A stretch of DNA of 49,127 bases, filler included, from Streblomastix strix (lineage: Eukaryota): NCBI GenBank assembly GCA_008636045.1. It is 3 parts of 3 records of this genome, joined end to end, with 100 filler letters (N's around TTAATTAATTAA, not from the genome) between each part and the next. Parts side by side here need not be neighbours in the genome. Positions count along the whole stretch, not along the records: positions 32,824 to 49,127 come from SNRW01000840.1; 2 more parts are not named here. One strand, 5' to 3'. The notes under the pieces were generated by a model. That model had not been told where the DNA came from, did not search any database, and worked only from the letters and a program-made list of their open reading frames with translations. Shown one piece after another: positions 1 to 48,447 of the stretch; positions within the stretch are counted from its first letter, which is position 1, and each line of letters starts with the position of its first letter. The position numbers and the translations under genes were made by a program.

Positions 1-410
1 ACCACAGTTATTCTTTGGCTAATTTAAGGTACAAGTAGTAATGTAACAAGATCGGCTGCTTCTGAAGAAATATGCTCATCAATATGGAATAAAGGAACTT
101 AATCAAAGAATTATTTGACTTAACTATAATATATTTATTTAACGAAAATAGAAAACACAAATTAAAATAAGAAAAAAATTAATAATTTTTAGTACGAATT
201 ATTTTTATTATAATTTTTTAATTATTAAAATTATACCGAGAGTACTCAGCTAAAGTTAACCCAATTAATGGATGACTAGAAATATTATAGAAAATTAAAC
301 AAAAATATAAAATAAAATAAAAAATCATTTATAATAATATATAATGAGTAGTAATAATCAATATCAAACTTCCTTGTCAACATAATGTACAGAACAAGTC
401 CAAAAGAGAA
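1..410 (-). repeat. Diverged duplicate of 11882-12291 (exons and introns of the second kinase-like domain)
   Basis: 1-410 aligns with 11882-12291 (starts ACCACAGTTATTCTTTGGC, ends CCAAAAGAGAA). Nearly identical over the first ~200 nt, with scattered substitutions afterwards. Confidence 0.95.
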
Positions 411-1664
411 TCCTTTCCCAGCGAGGATGTGAGAATTAATAATTATTGCAAATTGATATTTTTTCTTCATTTTATAGTAAATATGGAATCTTCTTACATA
501 AATGGTGGAAGCGCTTCACAGTCTTCATGAGATGGACATAATCCACTGAGATCTTAAGCCAGGAAATGTATTCCTGACTGGTAATAATCATGTGAAGATT
601 GGTATTCAAAAGAAAAATATGTTTATTAATTAATTAATTTATTTATTTATTTATAAACATTTAAGGTGATTTTGGATTGGCACGAATTGCATAGTAGACA
701 TAGCAATACTACACAAAAGTTGGAGGAACATCGTATTAATATTATTTATTTTATCAATTATATTCATATCATTGTTTAATGATATTATTTCACTTTCTTA
801 TATTTTTCAGAGTTTAATTTTCCCCTGAATTACTTGAAGAAGAGGAAGATGAATCAGACAGTGGAAGTGACAACGATTTTAATAAAATCCATAAAAGATC
901 AGCAACGTATTTAATTTATTTTTAGAATAAGTCATCATAGAATTATTTTACATTTTATTATTATTTTATTATTATCTAATTATTTTCAATTTCTCTCTTC
1001 AACAATATTAATATCCATTTATTATATAATCAATGAAGCTTCGTTATACAAACTTAAGAATCGGATATATTTGCACTTGGCGAGATTTGCTACGAGCTCA
1101 TTGTACTCAAACATCCTTTTACTGGTATGATAATAAATATAATATAAAATAAAAAAAATTTATTATTTGCATTTATTTTTTTATATTATTATTAGGCAAA
1201 CAAGGAAGGATTACAAATAAAAGAATAAAGAAATGTACTCCTAAATAACTTCCTTCTCGCATATCCGAATAATTGAAGTAAATTGTGATGGCGATGCTTA
1301 ACAAAGTATGATATATTATATTCATATAAAAAAATAATTATTATTTAAACTTATTTGTTATATTTCTTTATATTTTTTAATAATTATGACTATAATATTA
1401 TCTCTTTACATCATCATTATATTATCAATTAGGATCATGTTCGAAGATCAACTACTGGACAACTTATATCACAAAACTCAATGCTAACTTTTGCTATTAA
1501 CTTTTTTGAAAATGGTATAGTGCATTATATATAATGAAATAAATAATAAATAGAATCGTTGGAAAAAATTTTATAAATAAATTTCAAAAAATTAGATAAT
1601 AAATACCTACAGGTAAAAATCAGAGGTAGTTGCAAAAATATTCAATCTTCCAGAAGAAAAATGA
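402..1664 (+). pseudogene. 5'-truncated NEK-like Ser/Thr kinase, multi-exon, with in-frame TGA in the HRD motif
   Basis: Spliced code-6 translation: KRESFPSED|QIWNLLTQMVEALHSLHEMDIIH*DLKPGNVFLTGNNHVKIG|DFGLARIA..GGTS|VQFSPELL..|SDIFALGEICYELIVLKHPF..AMLNK|DHVRRST. GT-AG introns e.g. 429-477, 602-665, 733-810. TGA at 547-549. N-lobe is absent. Confidence 0.85.
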
Positions 1665-1949
1665 GCTCTTAGTTTGTTTATTGACTCATAGGGCACCCGC
1701 CAATGTGCCCAGCACGGGAAAATTGTGACATGGTCAAAAATAAATAGCAAATATAATAAAATATACTATTTTTCATGAACTGGAACATACGAGAACATTT
1801 GTAGTTCATGAATCATCTGTTTCTTTTTCTCTTATCATTGGCGCTTCGTGCTATTCATCAGCACTGTTTAATGTCTAGACTTCAGAGCTCTCCGTTTGCC
1901 CCAAATTCCCAAGGGTGGGAACATCTTAATGTGGTGGGACAAACGAAGA

Positions 1950-3350
1950 GCTCATAACTCTTCCGGAGGATTGTTTATATCCTTCCGAGTTATAAACTAC
2001 CTCTTACTGAGATAGTAAATTCTTCGATTGTTTGTTGACTCTCCCAATATTGAAAGGATCTAAGAGTCGGGCTACTTCTTCAGCATTCGCAGCATATTTT
2101 TGAGCCTTTTAGTCATCCACTACTTCAGTTGGAGTCCTAGAATATTATAAAAATGGTTAAAAAGTGTCCTCGGTCTCAATGGAGGACTGCGTTTGGGTGA
2201 TGTGGATTCCACTGAGGGGTTAAGAAAACTCCAGGTGGCTCAATCCTGCAGAAAGAACCACAATAGGGCTTTATATTCTCTATTCAACATTGAGTATCTA
2301 ATATTTAATCTCTTCTAGAAGTGTTCTTTTTTGATATTCATTTTCTTCGTTATCGAGTTCTTCTTCCGTCTAGCCAAGCACTTCTCTGGCTTCAAAATTA
2401 TTGTTCTTATCATAATACTGCCATACTGAGGAGGCAGTGTCAGAATGGTGAGTGAATCTATCAACTTTCACACTGCTGACATTATGTTTTAGGAGTTTGG
2501 TAATCGCCGCAGCTCTAATGGAGGTAACTGAGTATGTCTTGCTAATGCCGGCAGATTGCATTACTGCTCTTATGGCTTTATTAAGATCATCAGCCTAGAT
2601 GTATTTCTCTGCATGGCTGATCCTTCAGAGTTCTTGGGCTTTGTTCAGGATGTTTGGTTCTCTGTCACCGAACCAGGATTTGAACCAACGCAGTGGGCAG
2701 ATTCTCACATCAGGAATCTTGCAAATCTTGAATTTAGCTAATATTTGGGGGCACTTTAGGATCGTTGTTTAGATTATGTACTCATCATCCGATGTGCTAA
2801 GTAGTTCAGCTCTATGCAATTCAGCTATTCTCGCTACTATTAACACCATTACTAGTGTTGCAGCTATTGCTCTCCTTTGCTGAACTGAGAGGAGACCTTG
2901 TTCTAATAACGGGACTTATTATTTGATGTAATTTAATAAAATGTCTAGATCCAAGATCTGTTTTTCTTAATCTGTTAATCTATGTCGCGTTCTAATCTTT
3001 CGCATAAGCTGCTTGACTAGCTCGGAATGGATCTATTGTTCTGGGTATCCCATGAACTTGAGCAATATTGCTAATGCACATCGTTGATTCTTGATGGAGT
3101 TGTCAGAACACTTTTGATTTATCGTATTTTTCAAATAGTTTACCACGAAGATCTATAGCTGTTCTAGGTTTAGAAGATAGTCAGGCAGTTGGTGGATTCT
3201 CTTTAGATATCCTGCCAGCAATGTTAGCCCTACAATAAGTGTTCTCCTTTAGCAGGACCAGTTGGAAATGACTCGGTCTACTGCTTTAGCACTCAGTCCT
3301 CTAGCCTACAACAATTGTCTAAAAAGTTTCTCTCCGTCTTTACTCACACT
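1950..3350 (-). pseudogene. DIRS tyrosine recombinase (YR)
   Basis: QILDLDILLNYI..ATLVMVLIVARIAELHR..TILK..ICPLRWF..EL*RI..MQSAGISKTYSVTSIRAAAITKL..RFTHHS..VWQYYDK gives the R-K-(H)xxR-H-Y pattern. One internal TGA at a Trp-like position. 3' boundary approximate. Confidence 0.85.
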
Positions 3351-3399
3351 AAAAAAAGGTAGATCAATCCAGGTGGCAGTGCCCAACCTTTGTTTCTAT

Positions 3400-5300
3400 G
3401 CTTCGTTCACATTAGTAAGACTTGCGTTCTCTCTCCTAAGCATATCTTCTGTGTTGTATGCTCTCTCAGCTCTTTGAACCTCATCTGATTGGGCTAATCT
3501 GACGCTATCAAGATTGCTATTGGAAATTGCTCTTTCTTTTCTATCCTAAAAGTTTTTATTAGTTAGGAGATTGGCGGATGTAGAAGCGGAACTATCTTAG
3601 ACCATTCTGGACTAAATCCATTTCACTTGACAGCACACTTGTCTTTAGAGATACAACAATACCTCGTGCATAGTCGGTTCGCGCGTGATTCAAATATATC
3701 TATAGAGATCTAGATCCCAAGTTCCTTGAGCGTCTTCTAGAGGACTTCTTTCTTGATTGCTCAATCTCCGCATCTGGATAACCTTGACAAGCTGTCCGGT
3801 ATAGTGTTCGAAAAACCAGAAATATGGCTAGCTTCTATTATCCAATTGTATTGTTCTGCTAACTTGAAGATTTTGTCTACTAGAGGCGCGATCGTGATTG
3901 ATCCTTTGCCCTTGTTAAGGCAGTACATTGTAACTGTGTTGTCTGTGAGTAATCGAATTCCAATATACTGTTATCAGGTCAATTCTTGACGGAATTCTAG
4001 AAGCGCTTTCAGAATTGATGTCATTTCTCGTTTATTGGAGCTCTTGAGGTTAATACCCTTCCACTCACCGTGCGCAAAGACTTTTTCCTGATTCTCTCTG
4101 ATCAATATTGCTCCACATCCTGAGCTCGACGCATATGTTTGTACCGTAATCCATCTATTAGGCTTTGTGAAGCACAGTGGTTGGTTCTGGGCAAGCTTAT
4201 TGATCCACCAAGTTATGTCTGGTATCGCACTCTTGTTGAGTTGAGCCTACTTTTTCCGGCCTCTGCTAGCTACTTCCTTGTCTTTCAGCTTTTGGAGCAT
4301 CTTAGTGTGAAGCACGCCTCGTTTAAATTGTGCTTTTGTGTATTGGATCTCTCCAATTACAGATGCCAAGTTCCTTGTTCTAGAGTGTTTTTTTTGGTTA
4401 GTTCCATCAGATGCTCTAGTTACTTTAATACTTCCCTGCATCCGGATGTTGTTGTTTGCATTGTCATTGTTCCTATGTTCCGCTGCTAATACTAAAACTC
4501 AACTATCTGCGTGAGATTGACTTGGTTCTTGTCCATTGCGATCATCCGACGAAACTGCTGTAGAATCCTCATAATTTGTTGTATTTCGAGCTGCAATATT
4601 GTGGGAACCCAATTTAGAATCAGAATATCGTCTATATTGACGAAGATTCACGAGCTGCGTTGCTTCCTGGCTTCTGCAATCTCTTATTTAAAGCATTTTA
4701 TAAAGGTTATCGAGGCCGTTGAAACCCAAAACGGCATTCCTTTGTAGCAATAAGAGTGCCAATTAAAGCTAAAGCACAGATATGGTCGCATTTCCTCTGC
4801 TACTTAAATATGATGGAAGGTTTAATGCAGGTCTATCGTTGTTGCCCAATCGTTGGGCATTATTATTTTCTGAATGAATGTAATCCCCTCTAGCTTGAAT
4901 TACTCTGTTTTCAACTCGTAATTCAGAATTCAACAGTCCAGGATCTTGCGCCAGCCTCCTTTCTTCTTTGGGATCGCGAATATTGGATTCCAGCACTTTA
5001 CGAAAGAGTCCGGGACCTGGGTTATAACATCGTCTTCCAGTTCTTACTAGATAATCTTAGATAAGCTGGAATGCGCATCTGAATCTCCCTTGAATGCGAT
5101 CTTGTGTTTCAGGACTTCTAGGTTGTGCGTACTTTCTTGGCTTTTCCAGGTAAGCGCTATACCACTTTGTATTCTATCGTTCTGGCCTATCAATCTCTAA
5201 TGCGGCAAGAAGTTCAATAATCTGGCACCCACTTTGTACTGGACTTAAGTTGAAATCGCACTGGTATCCACCGCTGGTTGCGGTATAATAATTGTTGCTC
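3400..5300 (-). pseudogene. DIRS pol: reverse transcriptase, RNase H and adenine-methyltransferase-like domain
   Basis: RT: YKGMPFWVSTAS..*IFVNIDDILIL (YxDD decayed to NIDD, ~4620-4650). RNase H: TYASSSGCGA, SSNKREM, LTDNTVTMYCLNKGKG, HISGFSNTIPDSLSR. MT: IDIFESRANRLCTRYC..W..LLHPPIS (~3560-3710). Stops and substitutions indicate decay. Confidence 0.88.
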
Positions 5301-6682
5301 GATGGCAACTCGCAATCGATTAGATCTGAGTGTTTATTGTTAACGGTCATCCCAACATGTCGTCATCATCTTCTAGTACTTCGACTTTCTCCATGCGATT
5401 CTATGCTCACTTCTGTTCTCCTTCTGCTCCTTCCATCGATATCAATCATTGAGGATTCTCCTCAGCGCATCTCTCGCAATTCTATGCTCGCTAGTTATTA
5501 TTCGGTTGCCTGTGTCCTCTCTCTCTGTAGTTATTGCACCTTCCGGAGTACTGGCTATTATCGTGAGCAGGTAGGAATTGCGCTGGGGCTGATCTTAAGT
5601 TGCTCGAGACTTAATTCCTACTTTATCCTTAAGAGGAATGTGCAAAATGAATTATTCTTAGTCGCGCTCCTGCAGTCAGACACAAGAGGTATGCATCAAT
5701 CAGGTATCTGGAAGGTGGTTGGTTAGGTACAATATGGTGGATCTGCTCTATTAATGCGCTCTCTGCGAGTGCAACTGCTCTGGCACAGTCCGCATACACA
5801 TGTGATGTTTCGTTTGGCTGTATTTCTGCTGGTTCCGAAGTAGACCATAAGTTCTCGTATCGCCATCTATTCTGTTCTGCTGACCTTCTCCAAGAGTCTC
5901 TCGGTTCCATCTTGTTCGGATCGAACTAGGAAGCTCTATGAACTCACACTATCTTGACCATTTCTTTCAGAAATTCGCCGTCTCTGTGGTAATACTTGTA
6001 GTGTTGTCGATTGTAGTGTCTGTCTCTTTGTGGTGATCATTAACGATTAGATTTGCTTGAATTCGAAGTTGATGCATTATATCCCCAGCGCTTACGTATT
6101 CTTGAATATGTTTCGTAATGTATACTGGATCATGAGCCGCTAGTACTGCTAGAAGACTCAGAAAAGGATTTCTCTGTTCGTTTGTTCTTCTTTTTCTACT
6201 GTGCGGGAAGATCCTAATCCGAATCATCGATATTTGATGCTGAGCTCGATAACGGTGCGCTGGGACGCGGTAATAACGCTACAGGCTGTCCAGACTTGCT
6301 GTTCGCGATAAGCTATGCTCCAGGGCCATGCACCATAAAGAATCTGAGCTGCTTCTCCTAACTATTGGCCGCATGTGCGTATGTCATCTTCTGTTGTGTT
6401 TCAGTCTTCGAAAATGTGTTGTTAATCGCCGGAAATCTCTAGATTCGGTCCTCATACGCCATTTACTTGCTCAGAATGTACAGTTTATGAGCATTTAGCC
6501 TTTCCATAAACCTGGTAGTCATCCTTATCAAATGTCGGCAGGACAAAACTTTAATCCGCTAAAAAGACATCTATTTCGGGACTAGGCATGAATGCCAGAA
6601 CTAAAAGTGCTCTCCTATCTTTATCATAAACTGAGGGACCTTGCTCTTACGATGAACTTGACTATTACTCCTTTTCTGCCAT
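5300..6682 (-). pseudogene. DIRS ORF1 (gag-like), disrupted
   Basis: ATG at 6682 (MAEKEQQSSSSQEQGPSVYDKDRRALLVLAFM...). Same GC-richer composition, directly upstream of RT. Called from position, not from a motif. Confidence 0.55.
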
Positions 6683-6707
6683 GCAAAGACTTTTTCGGGC
6701 TGGACCC

Positions 6708-7480
6708 ATTGGCAGGTGCTCTAAAATCCAATAAATAATCGAAGAACTCACTATCTCTGTAGGAGGTAGCTTATTACCAGGAGGAATAAGTGCGATGGAT
6801 CGTTTTTAGAAAAACGAGAAATATTTTCTGAGACATGAAAGAGAGATATGATGAAGAAAATATGATAATTTTTGGGATTCAAAGCTCCTTGAGGACGAAT
6901 TTATTAGACTTGGACATGATGAATAATTATCTACTAAAATCCTTTAAGCGAAAGTAGCTACATAGTTGTTTATTATTCAAGCATTTCGCTTTAGCGCGAT
7001 GACTCGTATCTAAATTGGTTACATAAAATTCTTGATTAGAGGATTTAATAAGATAACTGATTAACAGACTGAGGCAGATCCGCGAGTAGTGAACTTCTCC
7101 CAGAAGAACTTTCAGAATAAGTTCAACTCAACTGTATTATCATTAGCAGAACTACAGAAAAGAGTATATTAATAACTAGCAGGATATGAATTTGCACCAC
7201 AATTTATAAATTTGATTAACTAGGGCGGATTTTCTGCTGAATGACTTGTTGATATGGCGCATAGCTTGATGTCTGAGGCTGGAATCGATACTTCATCTTT
7301 TGTAGCTTATTCTGCTAAAGTAATAGGGCCCTCTAAGTTGAAAAGAATAGAATTACCGAAGACGAAATTACTAAACATGCACGGCTATCTACCAAGAGCA
7401 TAATTTTATAAAATCTTAATTTGAAACTTATCATTCGCTCAATAGTATCCCAAGTTTCTCATTCTGCTCGTTGCCTTGTT
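6708..7480 (+). pseudogene. Second, divergent DIRS-type tyrosine recombinase relic
   Basis: RKYDNFWDSKLLEDEFIRLGHDEQLSTKILQAKVATQLFIIQAFRFSAMTRI...AE*LVDMAHSLMSEAGIDTSSFVAYSAKVIGPSKL, then frameshifted ITEDEITKHARLS. Matches the DIRS YR pattern Y..WD..L..K..R..AGID..F..HS.R. Confidence 0.75.
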
Positions 7481-8180: not shown

Positions 8181-9970
8181 ATGGAAACTTGGACATAATT
8201 TTAATAATACCCGCATATATTCGATATAATAATTGATACGGTAAACAAATCTTCCGATTTTCTAACTTAGATCAAATTAGTTTTAATTAACGATTGGAAA
8301 TAAAATTAAATTAATAAATCATGGACATAAATTTAAACGAGTCTTTTAATATAATAAAAAGAATTTTCATAATAATTAGAAGGAAAAGAAAACGAATTAA
8401 CTAATTTAATTACTCAAGTCACATAGTCCTATTAGTTAATTTTAAATTTCACTCTTCTTTAAATCTAAAATATTCTATAATTAATACTTTAAAATTAAGA
8501 TAGTTCATTATCATTTATAAATCTAATAATAAATCTCGATGAATTAGTTTCAATTCCAACCAATAACCTACCTGCAAAGAAAAGATTAACAATTGAAATT
8601 CAAATTATCCAAAAAAACATGAAAATTTGATAAATTTTAATTAATGAAATAAAAATTTATGGCAGAAATGTAACAAGATATCGATTATCTGCAATTGAAC
8701 CTTCAATTTAATTTGATAAATAGACTTATTTGAAGTAATTATTAAGAGCAGGAATTTAAGAAAAATACTCAGGATTTTCTAGATTTGAATTTTACAAAAA
8801 GAAATAAATAGAATGTAAAGTTGGATTGGAAGATGAATAAGAGAATGTTAAAGAAAATGAAAGAAAGATATCAAATGAAGAAGAAAAGATTGAACAAAAG
8901 AAGAAGAAGATATAAATATAGAAAAAGATGATGAAAATTAAGAAGATGATGATAAAGATGATTATTAGGAAGATGACACATTAAATAAAAATATTGAAAT
9001 TAACTTATAAGAAGAAAAAGAAGAAAATTTTATATTCAATCATTGTCATGATAGGTCACCAGCTATAATTGTTATGTTCATCTAAGACCCAATAGAATAA
9101 TCTCCTTAAATTCGGTAATTAGTTGATAATTTGAAAAGGAAATATATACCTGGAAGTCGAAAGATAAATGAATTTTAGAAAAAAATCGACAAATTTATTA
9201 GAAAAGTAATTATTCTAGATTTTATTCCAGATGAATATAAACTTTACTTATCTGATATGTAAGATCGCATAAACTCAATCTTAAAAGCTACGGAAATTAA
9301 TTAAACTGTATGAAATACTACTCTTCAAAACACTATTTATGCTTACTTTTAGTATTTAAAATTATGGTTGGGAAAGAGTAATTGTAAACCATAAAAGGAG
9401 AAATGGAAAAATAAATTGAAGTATCAAACATGTCAGATAATCATCATGTTGAAAAAAGAGAAATGGAAAAAGAAATTGATATATCAATCTTAGCAGACTA
9501 AAATCAGGTTGAAAATGAGGACGATTAATACTTTGTTGAAAAATTGAAAGTCATCAAAAGTAGAAACATTTAGGATGATGATCTAGCATGGTTCTTACTT
9601 CAATTTCAGCTGGAACACTTTCCTAGCCTATGCTTATCAAAAATTATTTTCATGTGGATTATAGAACATATGCTCCTGCATCTTTAAGAAAGCATAATAA
9701 TATTATATGGAATGAATCAATAAACGTAATTCCATCAAATGAATAGCTTTCTTTAAATACTTAGCATTTCAACTTAATGTAATAGAATTAAAGTGGCAAT
9801 ATCCCACTGGCTTCGAAGTGGGATCTGACTATTTATTTTCCACTATCTGATAAAAATAGCAAGAAAAAAATTGTTAAAATTTAAAACGATGATTATAATG
9901 ATAATGAAATAAAAGATAGGAAAAGTAATGAGAATAAGATATAATAAAATGGAAATGAAGAAAAATGATC
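8181..9970 (+). pseudogene. Intronless orphan ORF of unknown family with acidic tract, disrupted
   Basis: Code-6 frame from ATG 8181 (METWTQFQQYPHIFDII...). TGA at 8628, apparent frameshift in the E/D tract near 8900, further disruptions after 9300. Confidence 0.5.
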
Positions 9971-37118: not shown

Positions 37119-37980
37119 TACTTTTAAAGAACAAAAATACACATTTTGAATAAAATTACATTTTAGTCACGTATAAATTTATATAGAAGGATGAGTTACA
37201 CAAAATATAAATTTGAAATGAGAGTAATATTAAATCAAGATTAAACAGCATAAATAAATAAATATGTATACTTAACTGAAAGTTTAATATATTGAAGATA
37301 ATTCATGAGCTATACAATGGTTGCACGATTTAATTTTTTTGATTTTGTGCGCAAGGTTAGCGGAGTTTGGCGAGTTTTATTGTAAGAATATTTGAAGATA
37401 TTGAGAGTTCTATGTACATTTAACACATATATAAACCTCAATATGCTTCGACTTGCCCGTTTAAGACTGCCAATAAAATTCTGCGAATTTTCAACAGAAT
37501 TTTAATGCACATTTAAAATATTTTTTATTTAAATTAATGTTAATAATAAGAATTTAAATTCAATGAATAAAAGAAATTTGTTGAATATTCACAAAATCAT
37601 TTTATTTTGCTGTCGCTCTGCAAGCCGAAGCACGTTATAATTTCTATATATTTAATATTTGCAAAAAATGTACCGTATCTCCAAATATTCATGCAAACAT
37701 TTTTATAAAATACTACAAACCTTGTACACAAATTCATAAAAAAAACTTATTTGTACTGCCATAATACTACACATTAATTCAAAAAAACAATTTAATTTTA
37801 AATTTCCATAGATGTTATTTTATTTTTACAATTATTTACATTAAAATATATTCAGAGTTTTTAATTTTTTTTCAATTCAACATTTTTAATAAAATCACTT
37901 GCCAGTTTAACATTTAGACAATATTTTTACTTATTTCTGTTAATTTTTTGTTATTTTTAGTTTTGCTAATACATATAATA
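37119..37980. promoter_or_regulatory. Putative bidirectional promoter region between DYNC2H1 and IFT140
   Basis: 862-nt non-coding interval between two divergent ATGs. No specific element identified. Confidence 0.45.
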
Positions 37981-40900
37981 ATGAGTGAGCGTAAAACATT
38001 TCTGACAAAGTGGTCTGGCATTTCTTGTGGTTCTGTACACCGTCTTGCTCAGATTTTCGCAGTTGGACTTGTTCTTGAGAACAGAGTATCAATTTGCAAC
38101 GATGAAGTGTGATGGATGACCGCTTTTGGTTAATTACCTCTCAATTACTCTCTATTATTTCTAAATTATAGGGCCAATCAATCTTTGATTTTACAACTGA
38201 TTCTCCTCCCTCTATTTGTAGCTGGTATATCATTTGTTATTTAATAATACTTATTAATGTTATATTTATCTTCTTGTTCAGGGATCCTAATCACACTGTG
38301 TTGATTATTGGGTGTGAAAATGGAGCAATCAGACTATTCCATCACAAGAATATCAAGACGTATCATAAAGAAGACAACCATCATGGACGTATTACATGCA
38401 TATCTTGGGATTTATCTGGTTAGCGTGTACTTACAGGTGATTAGGTATATATTACTATATTATTATATATAATTACATATATTATTATATCTAAATACAT
38501 ATAGGTAGGAGAGATATTCCTGTGGTATATTGAAGATGCTGGAGGAAATAGAGAATTACATCCAATACTTAAATATGATCTACATAGTCCTGTTTCTGCT
38601 GCTGTATTTCGTTCCCCTGCGTTTGCTATATATTATATCTCTATATACTTATATATTATATCTCTATATACTTATATATTATATCTCTATATACTAATAT
38701 ATTCATATATACTTATATGTACTTATATATTATATCTCTATATTCATATATATTCATATATACTTATATATTCATATATATTATTGTGTAGACCTCCTTT
38801 GGATCCACATAAAGTACCTTCAACTCAATTTGCTGCACTTACTATTGAAGGAAGTGTATTCACTATTGATGAAGCTGCTGACTAATATGTACTTGTTGCT
38901 TAGTATGAAAGGAAATATATAATGTCAATATTAAGATATATATTATTTATTAATATACTTATTGTAAATAGGAATTTATAGGGTGGAGCATGCCAATTAT
39001 TATATTGCCCATTAACAGATTCATTAGTTGCTTTGATGGGGAATCTATCAATGCATATAATTGGCTTATCTATGATTGATAGAGAAGTCCAAACAGTTTA
39101 TATTCAATTGTTCTATTATTAATACAATTATATATTATCATTCATTTATTGTATCAAATAATAAAGACCAGAATAATGTCTACATCGCCCAATGCAGTGT
39201 TTGGAGATTCATGTTGGATATCAGCAGGACAAGGATTATTAGCCATATTAGCTGGAGAATAAAGGATAAGAATATTTGGATTGGATTAAGATAATGAAGA
39301 AAGTTATTCACTAGAACCTCCCTCTAATCTGAATATCCCATAAGATGATATATTTGTATCATTGGCATATGAATATCATACGAGATCATTAGCTGCTGTT
39401 ACATAAGGAGGAAGAGTATGTATATGGAGATATTACCCTGATGAAGGTGCTTCTCTTGCTGCTACTGGAGCTGGAATAGTATAGAGTATGATTATTATAT
39501 TATTGTTATATTATATTATATTATTGTTATATTATATTAGATGCATCTACAGAAGATGAAGATGGATAGAATTAACCAACAAGAGGTGAACAATGTTGGG
39601 AAATGTCCTTCTTTCATGAAACTGAATAAAAAGGAAAGACAATTCATTTTGGACCTGGACCCATGGGAAGAGTAATAACAGTTATGGCTGAGAGGAATAT
39701 AACAACAATTAAGAGGAATGAACCTAAAGCTGTATTAAGCAGTGATGGAACAGCTGCTGCTATATAGTTGAATAGCACTGAAATAGCATTGGAGAGAGAA
39801 GAATAAGAAAGTCAGATAATTAAATCTAATCTCAGAATATCAGGAATGTCAATAGATTCATAAAGATTAGTTGTATGGAGTGGGAAGAAGGTGGAAGTGT
39901 ATAGTATTGGTACTACACATTAATAGAAAGGAAGTAGCAATGATGAAGAAGAAGAATAAGATGATGAAGAGAATGCTCCTCATTTAGAAGCTAGTTTCAA
40001 TTTTGTATCATAATGTTTAGTAGTAAGAGGATCATCTCTATTTATATGTGCAGATAGTTTTGTGTATGTATGTAATATGGTTGGATCACCAAGATAGACT
40101 CTTCCTTTCTCTCCAGATGAAGGTGATCCTTGTTTATTAACAGTGTCCCCATAAGGGCATTTATCTGTTGGTACTAAACTTGGAGTAATCAAAGTATTGG
40201 ATGTTAGAGGATAGGAAGCTGTTTTAAAGGCTTCACCTTGGAGATTTAATAAAGGAGCTCCTGTTTCTATATCCATTAATTCAGATGGTACTGCAGTCGG
40301 CATTACTTGCTTAGTTCTTCCTGAAGAATTAAGAAATTAATTAAAAGAAAGTAATTAGAACATTAAAGGATAAAATTAGTAAGACAATGAAGATGATGAT
40401 GTAATCAATTTAGATATGTTATCTAGAGCATCTATACCTGATACAAGGATACATGTATACAGTGTAGAAAGAGGTACACTTCATTCATTTGATTTTGGAT
40501 AGCAGTAATTGTATCCTCTTTCAATATAATGGGATTCTTCTGATTCAAGATTCTTTGCTGTTTGTTTAAAGAGATTTATTAGAGATCCATCTGATGGGAA
40601 GTGGCATGATTCTAGAGATAGACATTTAGAGGTATAAACAATCAATATATAACAATATAATAATATATATATAATTCTTTTATTGTTATTATGATAATAG
40701 ATAGCAACATGCTTCTTCTCAAAAGATAAAGGAATTCTAATGTCAGATTCATTTCCAATGTAAGAAGATTATTAATCTCTTGTTGGATGCCATATTCCAT
40801 ATTTGTTCTTCAGCGTCAAATCAACTCCTTAGACAACACATTAGCCAAAAGTAGGATAGTAGATACTAAGAGAATATTAAGGATTAGATTCATCTGACCC

Positions 40901-43106
40901 ATAAACATTAGAAGCAATGAGGAACTTCACATATGCATTGACAATAGGCAATATGGATGAAGCCTACAGGAATGTTAAATATATTAAGAGTCAGAAGATG
41001 TGGGAGAATATGGCATAATTAGCTGTTAAAACAAGGAGAATGGATGTAATGGAGATCTGCTTGAGGAATATGGGTCATATGAGGGGGATGATCGCATTGA
41101 GAGAAGCTAGGAGGGAATAACAGCCTGAAGCTCAATTGGCTACAATTGCTGTTTAATTGGGATTATGCGATGAAGCAGAGAAATTGTTAAAAGAATCTAA
41201 GAGATGGGATTTATTAGTGAAATATTACATTAATTGTGGGAAATGGGGTTTGGCATTGAAGATATCAAAAGAAAGAGACCGAATCCATCTTCAATCTACA
41301 TATCATTAATATGCATAACATCTTGAGAGTTTAGGAGATCTTGCAGGAGCTATAAGATATTATGAAGAAGCAGGAACATCTGAAGTAGAAGTACCAAGGA
41401 TACTAATACACACAGGTAGAACACAATAATTCAAATAATATGCAGATAATAGTGAATCATAACCACTATAAATAATATGGGCACAATTATGTGAAGCCAA
41501 AGGATAAACAAAGGAGGCACTTGAATGCTACAAAGAATGCAAAGCTCTTCTTCCTGCAGTTAGATTACTATGTTCAGAAGGTAAATTAGAAGAAGCAAGA
41601 ATATTATTAGGGTCTTAGAATGATCCATTAGCATTGGAACATCTTGCAAGAGCATATGAATCAACAGGAGATGCAGAATAAGCAATTGCCTGCTATACAA
41701 GAGCAAGAAGATTTGGTCCAGCTATTCGCATAGCCATGAATAGTGAGAAAGAGAACAGTGTTATGATGCTAGCTCTTCATGCTGACCCAGTTGCTATGGT
41801 GGAGGCTGGCAGATACTTTGAATAGAAAGCACTATTTGAGAAAGCATTCACTTTATACAGAAAAGCTGGAGCACTTAACATGGCCATTGAAGTATGTTTT
41901 AAAGGAAACCTTAGAGAATCTTTGCATTAAATAGCTGACGACATATCAGCAGATGCAGATCCATCTTTATTGGCTTAATGTGCATCTTTCTTTGTTTCAA
42001 TTGGTAGATTTGATAAAGCATTTAATATGTTGATAGCAGCAGGTGAATATGATACTGCATTTGAACTATGTGAGTAGCATAATATTGTTATATCAGAATA
42101 GCTTGCAGAGAAAGTGATATAATCATTATAACCAAAAGAAACTAATAAGAAGACAAGTTTAATGGGATAACAAGGACCACAATAAGGATAAAGTATCAGA
42201 TTTGGAGTTACACCAGAAAGAAAGAATTAGATACTAACTTCATTAGCAAGAGTGCTTCATAATTAAGGATCTTTCTAAATAGCTGCAAAGATATTCTCAG
42301 ATGTTTCAGACTTTGTATCTGCAGTTAATTCACTCATTAGTAGTGGAGATATTGATAGAGTAATTGCATTTGCAAACCTCTGTCGAGATGCGAGAATATT
42401 CTTAATTGTAGCCAACTATCTACAAAGACTTGAGTGGAGAGCTAGACCTGAAATACTTAGACATATCATTACTATGTATTAAAAAGCCAAAGCAATGGAT
42501 GAATTAGTGTTATTCTATGAAGGATGCGCATAAGTTGAGATTGATGAGTATTTAGAATATGGGAAAGCATTAATGGCATTAAAAGAAGGACAGAGATATG
42601 CTCGTCTTTCAAAGACTGAAGGAGCTTCTGAGAGATTAGAAGCTCTTAGTAAACGTATTACTCTTGTAGAGTAATTCATTGCAGCTAAGAATATTGAAGT
42701 ATCAGATCCTGTTAATATGGTGCTTATTCTAAGAAAACTACTATCTGAGCCAGATATAGATGGATCAGTAAGAGCAGGAGATATATATGCTCAATTAATA
42801 CAACATTATCATTAGCTCAGAAGAATGGACGAAGCATGTGCAGCACTTAAATAGATGTCAGAAAGAGGAATTGCAGTAGGTCCTTATTTAGAAAGAGATG
42901 TAATAGAAGATATTTGTAATGCAAAAGGATTATCTCCATCTGACATTGGAATAGTTGAAGAGGTCGTTGATGAAGATGGATTAGAATAAGGAGATATTAG
43001 AGCATAGGGTCCACCAGGTGGAAATTAGAGCCAAGTAGCTAAATCAAGTAATAAAGGAAAAGTATAGGATGATGAAGAGAGATGGGAAGACGAAGATGAT
43101 GAATGA
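37981..43106 (+). CDS. IFT140: Intraflagellar transport protein 140 (IFT-A; WD40 + TPR), about eight introns
   Basis: N-terminal WD40s (HHGRITCISWDLSGQRVLTGD, LVVWSGKKVEVY), then NFTYALTIGNMDEAYRNVKYIKSQKMWENMAQLAVKTRRMDVMEICLRNM, RDRIHLQSTYHQYA, FYEGCAQVEIDEYLEYGKAL, VRAGDIYA. Stop TGA at 43104-43106. Confidence 0.95.
38627..38780 (+). repeat. Intronic minisatellite, 23-bp unit TATATATTATATCTCTATATACT (3 copies plus decayed copies)
   Basis: Direct repeats at 38627, 38650 and 38673 inside IFT140 intron 38621-38791. Confidence 0.85.
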
Positions 43107-43253
43107 CTTAGGAAGTTAATAGTATCTGTAGCCAATGCAATATAATTTATTAGCCTTACATAGTTTTTGACTTTTTAAAATATCATAATAAATATAAAAT
43201 CAACATATAAAATAATAAAAGTAAAAATTTTAAATAATGAATGATTTCTAATT

Positions 43254-44866
43254 TCAGAGTTTTGTTACAGATTCGCTTGCATTATTTCCCACACTTTCCG
43301 TATTTGTTTCTTATCTCAAAGGAAATGTTTGATTTGGCCTTCGAAGAACACTTGCTGATGAGGAAGAGTTTGAAGCAGAATATTCAGAACTGAATGAGAA
43401 ATTGTTTGTATTAGATTTGCTGTAGAAATTTGACGAATTTTGCGAAGCAGTCTTCGATTGAATCAATTTTTGAGATATGTGCTTTTATTAACTTTATTCT
43501 TATGATGCACTTTCCTATTGTGTATTTTTATAACTATGTGCTGCATTTAAATTGTTTGGAAGGATAATAATATTAAATTGTTAACTTGATTTTGATAAAT
43601 ATTAATTGAGATTTGTTCTAATACTTTTATTAATTGAGTTAATAGATGGAAGAAATTTACAATTGAGAGAATTATTATCTTTTTAATTTTATATACTTTT
43701 TCTTTCTGAATTTGTTGTTTATTCCTATTCTTCAATCAATACATTTTTATCTTATTATTAATTATATATGCTCCTATTCAATATTGCAGAATCTGATTGA
43801 TAACTATTTAAATTATTTATTATTGGTAATTTCTATTCATTTATTTATAAATTACTAATATTGCTATTAGAATTATATTTTTAATTAGAAGATAAATGAA
43901 ATGGAGATTAATGCGATTTAATTAAATATTGAAATGATTTTGTTGAGTTTGATTCACTATTGTTATTTTACAAATAAAAAGATTATGAAGATATAGATTT
44001 TAATTCTTAATTTGTTTTTTATTTATATAATATATTAGTATGAACTTTATTTTCTACTTATTCTTTTTCTTAAATTTATTGAATTTCAGGTTAATTAAGA
44101 GTATTATTAATTTATTGTTAATTACTAATGTTTTAATTGCAGATATCAGATGAAGATGAAATACTACGAGCTGTGGAAATATTTTCAGGGATTTATAATA
44201 TTTTCAAATTGTAAAAATTATTTTATTGTTTATCTTATTAGTTTATATTAATAAGTGAATGAGTTTAATGAGATAATTAAGGAGATTTGTTTAATTAAGA
44301 GAATATTGATTCTTATTAATAACATTATTAGATAAAATTATCATGTTTCTAATTTAAATTAGCGTTATTATCAGCAATGCAAAGATTAGAATTAGATGGT
44401 GATTATAACTAAAATAATTTATTCTCTGTATTTATATTTAATTTATCATCATTAAAATTTTAATTATTATCATAACTGTTACTATTAGTGTTATTATTAT
44501 TATAAGTGTTATTATTAGTGTTGTTATTATTATTATTATTATTACATTAAGGAGATAAGGATAAAGATTATTTTGGTGATTGAGTAACTGAATGGCTTCC
44601 TGGAGAATTTATTTCTATTATTCTTTTGGGTTTTGGAGAAAATAATTTAATTTATTCATTCTATAATAATTATTATTTAATATTGACTTTATTATTATTA
44701 TTATTAGTTATTTCAATATTTTTATTACTATTTGATTCATTCTAATGTATAAATTATTAAAATTAATTTTCACATGACTATGAGGATAATTATAAAATTG
44801 GTTATTATTTTAATTCAAACTATAATTAATTATCATCAGTGTTTTCTTCAGCATTTTCATCGTTAA

Positions 44867-44932
<66 letters not shown>

Positions 44933-47900
44933 TTATAATTTTAACAGGAAATTTAGAATGATTTGATTATAATGAAATTATTTAGCTATAAATTTCTAAT
45001 TTTAAATTTTATTCTTATTATTTTTCTTATTCTTGTTATAAATATTAATCAAAATATTTTTAATTTTCTTCTCCTTATTATTTTTCAAATTCATTTAAAT
45101 TATCAAAAGAGGTTTAATTTATATTTTATTTTTATTGGTTATTGAATTTTTGAAAATTATCAATTTCAAAATATTATTTCTTTACATCTCTTTTTATTAA
45201 ATCATCTTACTCTTCATTATTATTATAATCATAATTATTATCATTTTTAACTTTTTATTAAAATTATCTTATTCATTTTTATTCTGTTTCTTATTCATAT
45301 TGATTGCAATTCTTATTATTTTCATTATCAATATTTGAATTATTTTTATTTTTTTAGTCTATTGTATTTATATTAAGATTTGACTTTTCAATTTTTCTTC
45401 AATATTCATCTCCTATTGTTAGAATTTCATTTAACTGATATTATTTTTATTAATTTAAGTAGTTTAATCTAATTACATTTTAAATACTAAATTAATTTCT
45501 CTTCTCGTTTGTAAGAGTTGGAAGAGATGGAATAAATGGGCGTTACATTGTTTTTTTATTATAAATTGATTAGAGGTTATTTGATTGTTACTAAAAACTT
45601 GATTATTAAGAATTAGAATATAAATCAGTATTTGTTTTTGAAGATTAAATAATTGGTTGAGAATGAAATGTTGAAGTTTTATATTAATGATTAATAGCTG
45701 ATTAATTTCTAAATTATTAAGAGGATTGTTTTTTAGATAATAATTATGTAGAAGAAGATGATGATATATTAGTTGTTGAATGGTTAACTCTTTCATTAAA
45801 TTTTAGTTCGTCAAATAAAGGTTCTTTATCATTTATTAATGTTTCTTTAATTACATCTTCTTTCTTATCATTTTCATTTAATACATTACTTATTTTAAGA
45901 TTTTCATTTTCTTTTATTTAACTTGTTATTATTTTTTCATTCTTAGCATTAAACTAATATGTATTAAACAGTGTAGGAGGTAGTATGAACTATTCAAATT
46001 AAAGTGTATTTTATGTAGGATAAATTCTTTAATAACTTCCACAATGTTCATCCTCCCAATTTGAAAGAGCTTCTTCTATATGAGAAGGGAGAGTATATAA
46101 TTATTATGATTATTATTATTAAATTGGTTTAGATGTTTATTGAATTCGTGATGAAGATTACGATGTTAATATGCGAGATTATGATTAAGGTTTTTATTAA
46201 ATTGAAGAATTTGAATAAATGTTATTTAATTTAATATTTTATTTAAATGACATCATTCTTTTTAAATGTTTTTATTTCTCTTTTTTAATATATCTTAATC
46301 GCTATTATTCATTAATGTTCATAAGTTTTATAGCATCAGTAATTACACTTTTCTATAATATATTGTTTAATAATATTAAGATATTGATAATATAAAATAA
46401 AATATTATAAAATATTATAAAAATAACTAACTTTTACTCAAAAATCTGTCTTTGTATCCGTAAAAAATGAAGGGGTATGGTTTACTTCAAGAACATGAGG
46501 TCTAAATTAATTGTCAATAATGACATCAAATCCCAAAATTTCAAAACAAATTGAAGGCTGGATTTAGAGACAAATATGAAATATAAAACGTGTTATAATT
46601 AATATACGATAAATGATATAAATATCTTTAATATATTTTAATAATTAATTTTAAATATAGCCCAATAATTTTAATTTTGATAAATAGTCATAAATTGATT
46701 ATAATTCAACTATACCATTGGCAAGTAGTGTTCAGATCTATCTTTCACTCTCATATTTGGTTCATCTTCAATAATTTTAGTTGATTATAATTTATTTTTT
46801 TCTTGAGAATTTGATCTTGAATTGCTTTTTGTCTTTAATTCATTTTTATCATTTTATAATTGTTAATGAATTTTATCTACTTTTATTTTCAAGTTTTCAT
46901 TCACATCTTATTAATTCATATTTTCAGATTTATTCATCATATTTACTTACTATTTATCATCAACTTCAATAATATCTTCAATCTATTAATTTATTTTATT
47001 TTAAATTAAATTACTGGAATCATTTTATTATTTAATCTATTCCTCGAATTCATTGTTGTTGCACTCATTTGACTATATATATCTTTCATTATTTAATTTT
47101 TCTTCTAATTCCATTTTCATTTCATCAAAAGGTCTGCTTGAATAATATTAATGAGCTAAAACTTATTAAATGGGTAAAATAGTCTTTACACAACACAAAC
47201 TAATTTCATTCCATAATTAATTAATATCCACTCCTAATTTATCTTTCATATATTTCTTATATTTAGAATGACTCCATTTACTTGACCATTATTCATTATC
47301 AACTAATTAATCATTATATTATTTGCTTTCTTTATTCTATTAATTCATATTTTTATAATCTTCTTTTTGTACTTACTATTAGCCAACAACTAATTCATCA
47401 CGTTCTTATACTGTAATTTACTTAATTTCAACTTAACTTTCATCATCATCATCTTTTTCTTCTTCTTCTCCTTCTTCTTCTTCTCCTTCTTCTTCCTATT
47501 CATCTTCATCAATTGATCTAGCATTCTCATTTGCAGCAATAAATGAGATATTTTTTTTATTAATAGCGTAGTTAGTTAAATGCATAAATGAGTTTTTTAA
47601 ATTTTTTCAATTGAGTTTATATTTTTCAGTACAAAATCTAATTAATCCTTCATTGTGTAGAAATATTCTCATTGTTGGATGAACTGATGTAATAAGCACA
47701 TATAATCTTATGTCATATTTGTATCCATTAATGAGATGAGGTTTTTTAAGATAAGTTTATACAATGCAATCATCACTAATTGAAATTCGGTTAATATTTC
47801 TTGTTAAGAATATTCCTTTCCCTTAACAGCTAGCATCAGGTTTGACAATTAAAGTTGGTCTATTGTGCAATTAACAATATGTATGTAATTCATTATAACT

Positions 47901-48447
47901 ATATATTAAATAATAGTATAAAATAATAAAATAAAATAAAATAAAACAAAATAAAATAAAATAAAATAAAATAAAATAAAATAAAATAAAAAAATTATAT
48001 ATCTATTAATAAATAAACTTTTATGGTAAAATCCATGTGTTTGGGATGAATTTATAATCATTTTTAAATAATTTTTTCATTCTATTCATATTTTTAGCCA
48101 AGCAGTCCTTTCATGTTATCTCATTTGTACCTACAAAATGATTTATTCTCTCAAATTTCAAAAAAAAATATTCTTTCATTAAAATATTTAATAATTTTAG
48201 TATGGTAGATACTTGATATGGTTTCATTATCCTAAGTTTATCTGCAGAAATCGATTGATCGGACCAAAACAAAGACCATTCTCGTTCATCGTCTGTTTCT
48301 ATCCATCCTAGTTCTCTGATTACGTGACGCAAAACTGGATACTTACATTCTAATAGAAAAGCATTTATAAATTATAGAATCTAAATAATTTAGTTTCATA
48401 CATGATAGATTTACAGCAATTACACTTTAAATTTTTCGTTTTGACAT
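43254..48447 (-). CDS. TTLL6/TTLL13-like tubulin polyglutamylase with long N/Q-rich tail; five in-frame TGA codons
   Basis: [56 protein letters not shown]|..[60 protein letters not shown]..|[38 protein letters not shown] at 48447, four introns, final TGA at 43254-43256. Confidence 0.9.
44868..44930 (-). repeat. (TAA)21 coding microsatellite encoding poly-Gln in TTLL
   Basis: 21 consecutive in-frame TAA codons between ..FPVKIIN and LNDENAEE.. Confidence 0.9.
47925..47990 (+). repeat. (AAAAT)n microsatellite in a TTLL intron
   Basis: Pentanucleotide run between coding exons. Confidence 0.9.

What the first reader, a model, noticed from the sequence alone, without database searches (positions are those of the whole stretch)
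43254..48447. Five in-frame TGA codons in an otherwise intact TTLL gene: candidate TGA=Arg recoding or U-to-C editing on top of TAA/TAG=Gln
Seen: TGA at 48111 (NEIT*KDCLAKN), 47607 (KYKLN*KNLK), 46438 (TDF*VK), 45399 (DEY*RKI) and 45273 (EQK*IRQ). Catalytic motifs and splice sites are intact, and I found no frameshift over ~1500 codons, including a ~3-kb microsatellite-rich exon whose triplet repeats keep frame. Established: the first site is the conserved Arg of TTLL6/13 EIxRKD; the other four are Arg-compatible but unanchored. Inference: TAA, TAG and TGA would all be read as their C-initial counterparts (CAA, CAG, CGA). That is what first-position U-to-C editing (as in hornwort/fern organelles) or a UCA-anticodon/near-cognate tRNA-Arg with position-dependent termination would give. 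The all-stops-reassigned nuclear codes I know (Blastocrithidia, Condylostoma) use UGA=Trp, not Arg. Alternative: a young pseudogene hit by methyl-CpG deamination. CGA codons persist in this gene, dynein has no TGA, and one ARM-gene TGA sits at a Cys site.
Basis: partly seen in the sequence, partly recalled or inferred. Interest (0 to 1): 0.92.

Follow-up and report, generated by a model that had tools for sequence, protein, structure and literature searches.

The report
Tubulin-enzyme gene with five internal stops
A single-copy tubulin-modifying gene of a termite-gut protist carries five real internal TGA stop codons; it is slightly more likely a recently dead gene than a sign that this organism, which already reads TAA and TAG as glutamine, also reads TGA as arginine, and RNA or protein data would settle it.

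Summary
The five in-frame TGAs are real: correct coordinates, no frameshift in 1,573 codons, and identical in separately assembled contigs of run X1. The gene is TTLL6/13-like; the organism is Streblomastix strix or a close relative (TAA/TAG = Gln). Only site 1 is firmly Arg (88 of 104 homologs). Site 3 is Arg in one Blattamonas homolog; sites 2, 4 and 5 are unanchored.

For UGA = Arg: none of 38 near-invariant columns is changed (3.6 expected if dead, P=0.07). There is no excess of CpG-type missense changes and no near-identical intact copy. A Gln/Gln/Arg code has been reported computationally in spirotrich ciliates.

Against: the neighbouring dynein and IFT140 genes have no internal TGA in 2,596 codons (0 of 138 Arg codons versus 5 of 48). 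A dead retroelement in the window shows that decay here gives TGAs, often at Arg, with few frameshifts (7 TGA, 1 frameshift).

Verdict: young pseudogene about 0.5, UGA read as Arg about 0.38, U-to-C editing about 0.05, artefact about 0.03. No RNA run was available. Editing of TAA/TAG is not needed to explain the data.

The parts
48402..48447 (-). TTLL exon 1 (ATG at 48447)
   Evidence: GT donor follows; joins in frame to a TTLL6-like N-terminus
48213..48349 (-). TTLL exon 2 (CKYPVLR...WSLFWSD...MKPYQ)
   Evidence: aligns to TTLL6 chain 6vzt_A 17-61
48150..48212 (-). intron 2, 63 nt, unusual GAG acceptor
   Evidence: must be removed to keep the YQRINHF motif
48019..48149 (-). TTLL exon 3 ([14 protein letters not shown]...)
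48111..48113 (-). internal TGA 1, codon 74, conserved Arg column
   Evidence: R in 88 of 104 homologs and 139 of 164; R in Blattamonas P0125 and in TTLL6 EICRKD
46716..47898 (-). TTLL exon 4: TTL domain core with two long low-complexity in-frame insertions
   Evidence: Pfam TTL PF03133, E=1e-39
47607..47609 (-). internal TGA 2, codon 202, variable loop beside a one-residue deletion
   Evidence: column has K20, S17, G17, R5 of 171; unanchored
46432..46557 (-). TTLL exon 5 (CFEILGFD...LEVNHTPSF)
   Evidence: motif columns match the family
46438..46440 (-). internal TGA 3, codon 539
   Evidence: column has K27, R23, Q15 of 151; R in Blattamonas P0124, D in P0125
43254..46352 (-). TTLL exon 6: 1,032 codons, [19 protein letters not shown] motif then a Gln/Asn/Ser-rich tail; terminal TGA at 43254-43256
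45399..45401 (-). internal TGA 4, codon 859, low-complexity tail
   Evidence: no homolog column
45273..45275 (-). internal TGA 5, codon 901, low-complexity tail
   Evidence: no homolog column
37981..43106 (+). IFT140-like neighbour, convergent, ends in TGA at 43104-43106; control gene
   Evidence: Pfam PF24762, PF24760; 0 internal TGA in 1,165 codons of the two large exons, CpG o/e 0.15; the seven small exons each have an open frame at approximate bounds
32826..37118 (-). dynein heavy chain, N-terminal 1,431 codons (cut by the piece end); control gene
   Evidence: Pfam DHC_N1, DHC_N2; 0 internal TGA, CpG o/e 0.13
2160..5274 (-). decayed retroelement copy (RT, RNase H-like and recombinase-like ORFs; the label DIRS is recalled), used to calibrate decay; on another piece of the window
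   Evidence: 7 TGA in 1,029 codons and one RT-to-RNase H frame change; 65 differences from other copies in 741 bp; relatives named S. strix

Best explanation
This TTLL6/13-like tubulin polyglutamylase gene has five genomic in-frame TGAs and is likely a young single-copy pseudogene in an organism where TGA is the only stop. Shown: the gene structure, the five TGAs, site 1 at a conserved Arg, TGA ending the neighbouring genes, and no internal TGA in them. Inferred: after selection lapsed, point mutations made TGA from CGA (site 1, perhaps site 3) and from CGA, TAA or other one-step codons (sites 2, 4, 5). This was probably sped by deamination of methylated CpG, since the adjoining gene bodies are strongly CpG-depleted and this one is partly depleted. 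Translation would stop after 73 residues, and a more distant TTLL paralogue would supply the activity.
For: No internal TGA in dynein (1,431 codons) or IFT140 (1,165 codons): 0 of 138 Arg codons versus 5 of 48 here, Fisher p=0.001. None in the PNPOx-like gene, ARM blocks or orfK either. P(0 in 2,596 codons) at this gene's rate is 3e-4. TAR fills 76-87% of Gln codons, yet TGA is absent beside 109 AGA codons in the neighbours, so TGA is not a free Arg synonym. Dead sequence in this genome looks similar: the retroelement copy has 7 TGA and 1 frameshift in 1,029 codons. Three of its 6 anchored TGAs are at Arg, the others at Gln, Tyr and Gly. Site 4932 is CGA in other copies, and there are 0 indels beside 65 substitutions. 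A truncated kinase fragment has TGA at the HRD Arg. Small lesions exist in the gene: a one-residue deletion, Pro>Leu and a GAG acceptor. A distant paralogue contig exists in X1 (11 differences in 60 nt). CpG o/e is 0.54 here versus 0.13-0.15 next door.
Against: Plain decay needs about 4.4% divergence (about 183 substitutions) and predicts 3.6 changes at the 38 columns that are at least 95% conserved; 0 are seen (P=0.066). At the 70% threshold the test is not significant. Conserved-column misses (16 of 100) resemble Blattamonas (14 of 100, 13 of 80). Plain decay makes only 12% of TGAs from Arg, and the site pattern favours Arg 25-fold. CpG-driven decay predicts about 4 extra CpG-type missense changes; only 2-3 of 59-70 opportunities are seen, which is background (likelihood ratio 3.5-9 against). 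The dead retroelement shows no CpG hypermutation (ratio 1.1, from 40 of 65 listed differences). No near-identical intact copy was seen in X1, so this would be outright loss of a single-copy gene. Methylation itself was not measured.
Confidence: 0.5

Rival explanations
1. UGA has two meanings in this organism: Arg inside a reading frame and stop near the 3' end. Internal UGA would be decoded by a tRNA-Arg, either near-cognate or with a UCA anticodon, while eRF1 would act efficiently only near the poly(A) tail. CGA>TGA changes would then be nearly silent and gather in AT-rich, weakly selected genes that still hold CGA codons. The gene is live.
For: Site likelihood ratio of 25 for Arg over neutral decay; Trp and Cys about 0, Gln 0.004. 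0 of 38 near-invariant columns changed. No CpG-type missense excess. All 8 TGG codons survive and no anchored TGA sits at Trp. The frame stays open for 673 codons after the last internal TGA. Counted only against CGA codons, the contrast with neighbours is not significant (5:6 versus 0:3, p=0.26). Gln/Gln/Arg was reported computationally in seven spirotrichs, and genes with internal stops were lower in GC (PMC10089648, sections 5 and 8); this gene is 21% GC versus 30-35% next door. Arg is a natural near-cognate product of UGA in yeast (PMC5866558, passages). Only 147 nt separate the convergent IFT140 and TTLL stops, so the 3' UTRs are probably short.
Against: Only one site is firmly anchored. 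There is no internal TGA in about 3,700 codons of other window genes. The base after TGA does not separate internal (A,A,G,A,A) from terminal (A,C,A,G) sites. Five sites in series need efficient decoding, which fits poorly with absence elsewhere. No RNA, tRNA or eRF1 evidence was obtained. In the sections read, the ciliate precedent rests on alignments and read mapping, with only about half of sites above 90% allele frequency, and could itself reflect CGA>TGA nonsense alleles (my inference).
Confidence: 0.38
2. The gene is live because U-to-C editing of the mRNA turns UGA into CGA, and perhaps restores Pro200 from CUC.
For: Site 1 needs Arg. T>C back-changes improve the family fit more often than A>G ones (10 of 135 versus 7 of 262), including Leu200>Pro.
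Against: Two control code-6 TTLL loci show T>C rates as high or higher (18 of 148, 16 of 166). Only 3 of 16 conserved-column mismatches could be fixed by U>C. Nuclear U-to-C mRNA editing is not known to me (recalled). TAR is handled as a code change in S. strix transcripts (PMC13002328, passages).
Confidence: 0.05
3. The TGAs are sequencing, assembly or amplification errors.
For: Only one DNA run holds the stretch, and it may be the source of the window.
Against: Separately assembled contigs agree at all five sites with 0 other letters at depth 42-89. The adjacent 2,596 codons have no such errors.
Confidence: 0.03

Closest known systems
TTLL6/TTLL13 tubulin polyglutamylases (TTLL6 6vzt; Blattamonas nauphoetae P0124, P0125)
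   Same: TTL domain with [33 protein letters not shown] and LEVNH motifs; best PDB match TTLL6, E=9e-50; SKWS shared with Blattamonas
   Different: five internal TGAs, two long low-complexity insertions inside the domain, a one-residue deletion, and a roughly 900-residue Gln/Asn/Ser tail
Genetic code 6 of Streblomastix strix (TAR=Gln, TGA=stop)
   Same: TAA/TAG fill 76-87% of Gln codons and TGA ends genes; the nearest retroelement proteins are named S. strix
   Different: this gene breaks five times under that code
Gln/Gln/Arg code reported for spirotrich ciliates such as Uronychia setigera (PMC10089648; passages and sections 5, 7, 8 read, supplements not read)
   Same: TAR=Gln with internal TGA aligning to Arg; their worked example is also a tubulin ligase with five TGAs
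   Different: theirs is a genome-wide computational call (987 TGA sites in U. setigera); here one gene, one firm anchor, and an oxymonad rather than a ciliate
All-stops-reassigned code of Amoebophrya sp. ex Karlodinium veneficum (PMC6394959, passages)
   Same: UAA/UAG=Gln with UGA as both sense and stop
   Different: UGA=Trp there; Trp does not fit these sites
Putative organellar UGA=Arg: Trentepohliales plastids (PMC8692980, passages), Craticula vanensis mitogenome (PMC13672107, passages)
   Same: in-frame UGA at Arg columns, also unconfirmed by protein data
   Different: organellar and spread over many genes; this is a nuclear, intron-containing gene

Membership tests
TTLL6/13 polyglutamylase | TTL domain with intact conserved motifs | tested here: met
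   Pfam PF03133; TTLL6 best in PDB; 38 of 38 near-invariant columns match
TTLL6/13 polyglutamylase | full-length active protein | not testable with these tools
   depends on how TGA is read
Code 6 (TAR=Gln) | TAA/TAG at Gln positions, TGA at gene ends | tested here: met
   QG motif and Gln columns; four terminal TGAs
Dual-meaning UGA=Arg/stop code | internal TGA at conserved Arg columns | tested here: inconclusive
   1 of 5 firm, 1 weak, 3 unanchored
Dual-meaning UGA=Arg/stop code | internal TGA in many intact genes | tested here: not met
   0 in 2,596 codons of dynein and IFT140 and 0 in about 1,140 further codons; only this window could be examined, as no whole genome is held
Dual-meaning UGA=Arg/stop code | UGA present in translated mRNA and decoded as Arg | not testable with these tools
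Dual-meaning UGA=Arg/stop code | a decoding tRNA-Arg and altered eRF1 | not testable with these tools
   no tRNA gene in the window; genome not held
Young pseudogene | premature stops fixed in genomic DNA | tested here: met
Young pseudogene | relaxed selection on amino acids | tested here: inconclusive
   0 of 38 near-invariant columns changed against 3.6 expected (P=0.066); compatible at looser thresholds; no close orthologue for dN/dS
Young pseudogene | symmetric CG>TG and CG>CA excess (methyl-CpG decay) | tested here: not met
   CpG-type back-changes 2 of 36 and 1 of 34; small numbers, and no outgroup DNA
Young pseudogene | intact near-identical parent copy | tested here: not met
   none among 585 X1 records laid at >=80% likeness; Logan contigs can drop variants. 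Not required for a single-copy loss
U-to-C RNA editing | C in RNA where DNA has T | not testable with these tools
   no RNA reads

The most novel reading that the evidence does not exclude
Streblomastix reads all three stop codons as sense (UAA/UAG=Gln, UGA=Arg) and ends translation at UGA by position. This would be the first nuclear UGA=Arg code outside ciliates that my searches found, arising by drift of CGA to TGA in AT-rich genes.
Probability: 0.38. Interest if true: 0.8.

Novelty: new member of a known kind. Interest (0 to 1): 0.47.

Why it matters
If the gene is live, an oxymonad has independently reached a code in which every stop codon also codes for an amino acid, with Arg rather than the usual Trp at UGA. 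S. strix gene models made with code 6 would then be cut short in AT-rich genes, and the computational Gln/Gln/Arg claim for ciliates would gain an independent case. If the gene is dead, it is a caution: in code-6 genomes, decay alone puts TGA at Arg columns with few frameshifts, which can mimic UGA=Arg in alignment-based code calls. Either outcome can be tested with transcriptomes that are already public.

Tried and rejected
Whole genome: none held, so no genome-wide TGA tally and no tRNA or eRF1 search. Sequencing runs: no RNA holder listed; this says nothing about expression. X2 and X3 barely cover the locus. Three protein searches (lengths 216-690, 691-2000 and 30-215; 130, 60 and 76 hits) gave no Streblomastix TTLL. 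The metagenome motif scan gave 3 loci, all distant code-6 TTLL genes at about 33-74% local identity, with no orthologue; two served as controls. Trp313 as an Arg>Trp CpG hit: rejected, because it is shared with both Blattamonas proteins. TGA=Trp, Cys or Gln: rejected by site fit; Lys was neutral. An alternative donor at 46437 does not remove site 3, and the alignment favours 46431. The kinase H*D site as independent support for recoding: rejected, because the fragment is cut at its 5' end near 409, differs from usual kinase motifs (recalled) and lies among decayed elements. The no-frameshift argument: largely rejected after calibration. The S. strix genome paper is not held. Earlier-findings look-ups gave nothing relevant. 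No paper on cytosine methylation in oxymonads surfaced (listings only). No structure prediction was run, as it would not separate the hypotheses.
Full report
Setting. The window is three pieces joined by N-flanked linkers (16314-16413, 32724-32823). The third piece holds a dynein heavy chain gene, an IFT140-like gene and the TTLL gene. The one run that holds the stretch is labelled termite gut metagenome. The nearest relatives of a retroelement on the first piece, at 69-74% identity, are proteins named Streblomastix strix (2 of the 4 looked up). With TAA/TAG read as Gln, the organism is S. strix or a close relative (inference; it assumes the pieces share a source). Its TAR=Gln code is known (PMC13002328 and PMC10120064, passages).

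Observation. A six-exon model gives 1,573 codons and a terminal TGA, with internal TGAs at codons 74, 202, 539, 859 and 901 and no frameshift. About 20 TGAs would be expected without selection, P=7e-5. Contigs of run X1 match all five sites with no other letter at depth 42-89, and show no near-identical second copy. One contig matches 60 nt with 11 differences and is probably a distant paralogue.

What the sites align to. Site 1 is Arg in 88 of 104 homologs, in Blattamonas P0125 and in TTLL6. Site 3 is variable (K27, R23, Q15 of 151), Arg in P0124 and Asp in P0125. Site 2 lies in a variable loop that is one residue short here (12 versus 13 in 158 of 237 homologs). Sites 4 and 5 lie in a tail without homologs, where Gln is 16% and Arg 2% of residues. 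Against neutral decay, the five positions fit Arg 25-fold better, Lys about equally, and Trp, Cys, Gln and Gly far worse. Most of that comes from sites 1 and 3, which were recognised before the test.

Other genes. Dynein (1,431 codons) and the two large IFT140 exons (1,165 codons) have no internal TGA: 0 of 138 Arg codons against 5 of 48 (p=0.001). They hold only 3 CGA codons, so counted against CGA the contrast vanishes (p=0.26). The PNPOx-like gene, three ARM blocks and orfK add about 1,140 codons without one. TGA ends IFT140, the PNPOx-like gene, orfK and TTLL, and the following base does not differ from that of internal sites. CpG o/e is 0.13-0.15 in dynein and IFT140, 0.54 in TTLL and 0.5-0.9 in most other ORFs. 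I read this as gene-body methylation, which was not measured.

Calibrating decay. The retroelement copy differs from other copies in X1 at 65 of 741 bases, with no indel there. Of the 40 differences listed, 29 are non-synonymous, and CpG sites are not hit more than other C or G (3 versus 12, ratio 1.1). It has 7 TGAs and one frameshift in 1,029 codons, with 4.6 TGAs expected from its spectrum. Three of 6 anchored TGAs are at Arg, the others at Gln, Tyr and Gly. A duplicated 410-nt stretch shows 18 substitutions and no gap. So dead sequence here collects TGAs, often at Arg, much faster than frameshifts, and the absence of a frameshift in TTLL says little. Among 55 of 150 related RT proteins from mixed sources that end inside a relative, the next residue is Arg in 12 and Trp in 10.

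Is the protein still under selection? With that spectrum, five TGAs need about 4.4% divergence. This predicts 3.6 changes at the 38 near-invariant columns; none is seen (P=0.066). At 70% conservation 7.6 are predicted and 8 are private to this gene, four of them needing more than one base change, so the looser test does not discriminate. If decay were driven by CpG deamination, fewer background changes are needed, but about 4 extra CpG-type missense changes are expected. Only 2-3 are seen, equal to background, a likelihood ratio of 3.5-9 against (the expectation is my hand estimate from surviving CpGs). A toy model shows that five TGAs without frameshift are easy only with a large CpG factor or a low indel rate; the calibration above points to a low indel rate.

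Weighing. A rough bookkeeping with hand-chosen factors gives recoding a share of 0.22-0.87, depending on the prior and on how likely CpG hypermutation is. This is a sensitivity range, not a measurement. I place the prior somewhat in favour of gene loss. TAR is fully equilibrated in this genome while TGA is absent beside 109 AGA codons next door, the gene carries small lesions, and the window is rich in decayed genes. Final odds: pseudogene 0.5, UGA=Arg 0.38, editing 0.05, artefact 0.03. If recoding holds, the likely mechanism (inferred) is decoding by a tRNA-Arg with termination near the poly(A) tail; Arg is a known near-cognate product of UGA in yeast (PMC5866558, passages).

Known cases. PMC10089648 (passages; sections 5, 7, 8; supplements not read) reports TAA/TAG/TGA = Gln/Gln/Arg in seven spirotrich ciliates from Codetta and read mapping. 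Its example is a tubulin ligase gene with five TGAs matching Arg, and about half of the sites had allele frequency above 90%; its supplementary figure S2 may bear on how firm that is. Putative UGA=Arg is also reported in Trentepohliales plastids (PMC8692980, passages) and a diatom mitogenome (PMC13672107, passages). Amoebophrya uses UGA as Trp and stop (PMC6394959, passages). PMC11687900 (passages) lists ciliate UGA meanings as Cys and Trp, with no mention of arginine. Searches listed no paper reporting UGA=Arg or editing in Streblomastix, judged from listings and the passages named; the genome paper was not held. Neither outcome is a new kind of system. Recoding would be a new nuclear instance, outside ciliates, of a thinly supported code.

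Noticed in passing
window 16314-16413 and 32724-32823: Linkers of 44 N, TTAATTAATTAA and 44 N split the window into three pieces of about 16.3 kb that need not be adjacent in the genome.
   Followed up: yes
window 32824-43106: Strong CpG depletion in the dynein and IFT140 bodies (o/e 0.13-0.15) with a CpG-rich stretch between their divergent 5' ends (36824-38800), suggesting gene-body methylation in an oxymonad.
   Followed up: partly
window 32826-48447: Dynein heavy chain, IFT140 and TTLL6-like genes sit side by side, all flagellum- or microtubule-related; whether the dynein is dynein-2 was not tested.
   Followed up: no
window 410-1515 (+): Kinase C-lobe fragment with TGA at 547 in place of the HRD Arg, joined near 409 to an opposite-strand fragment of another kinase (rearrangement or amplification chimera).
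   Followed up: partly
window 1700-6900 (-): Decayed retroelement with RT, RNase H-like and recombinase-like ORFs (DIRS-like, label recalled); many copies in run X1; no CpG hypermutation.
   Followed up: yes
window 19203-20102 (+): Intronless 299-residue gene matching pyridoxamine 5'-phosphate oxidase-like families in both halves (PF16242, PF01243); possibly of bacterial origin, not tested.
   Followed up: partly
window 10410-11519 (-): 370-codon ORF without Pfam match, ending in PISKPVSKQ-type repeats, with one internal TGA at 10919 and no frameshift; the site is unanchored.
   Followed up: partly
window 6640-7440 (+) and 8340-9830 (+): Unidentified ORF remnants with several TGAs; the second also changes frame (and frames printed).
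   Followed up: no
window 1-410 and 11882-12291: Duplicated kinase fragment, 95.6% identical, 18 substitutions and no gap.
   Followed up: yes
window 16800-18800 (-): Ubiquitin-specific-protease-like exons in which the usual catalytic Cys position reads Ser (NQGETSYLNS; motif recalled, seen in frames printed).
   Followed up: no
window 46716-47560 (-): Two low-complexity in-frame insertions of about 75 and 130 residues interrupt the TTL domain, much longer than in the Blattamonas homologs.
   Followed up: partly
L001-L003: AT-rich code-6 TTLL6-like genes from metagenomes, with no stop in the aligned parts of L001 and L003; probably ciliates (inference).
   Followed up: partly
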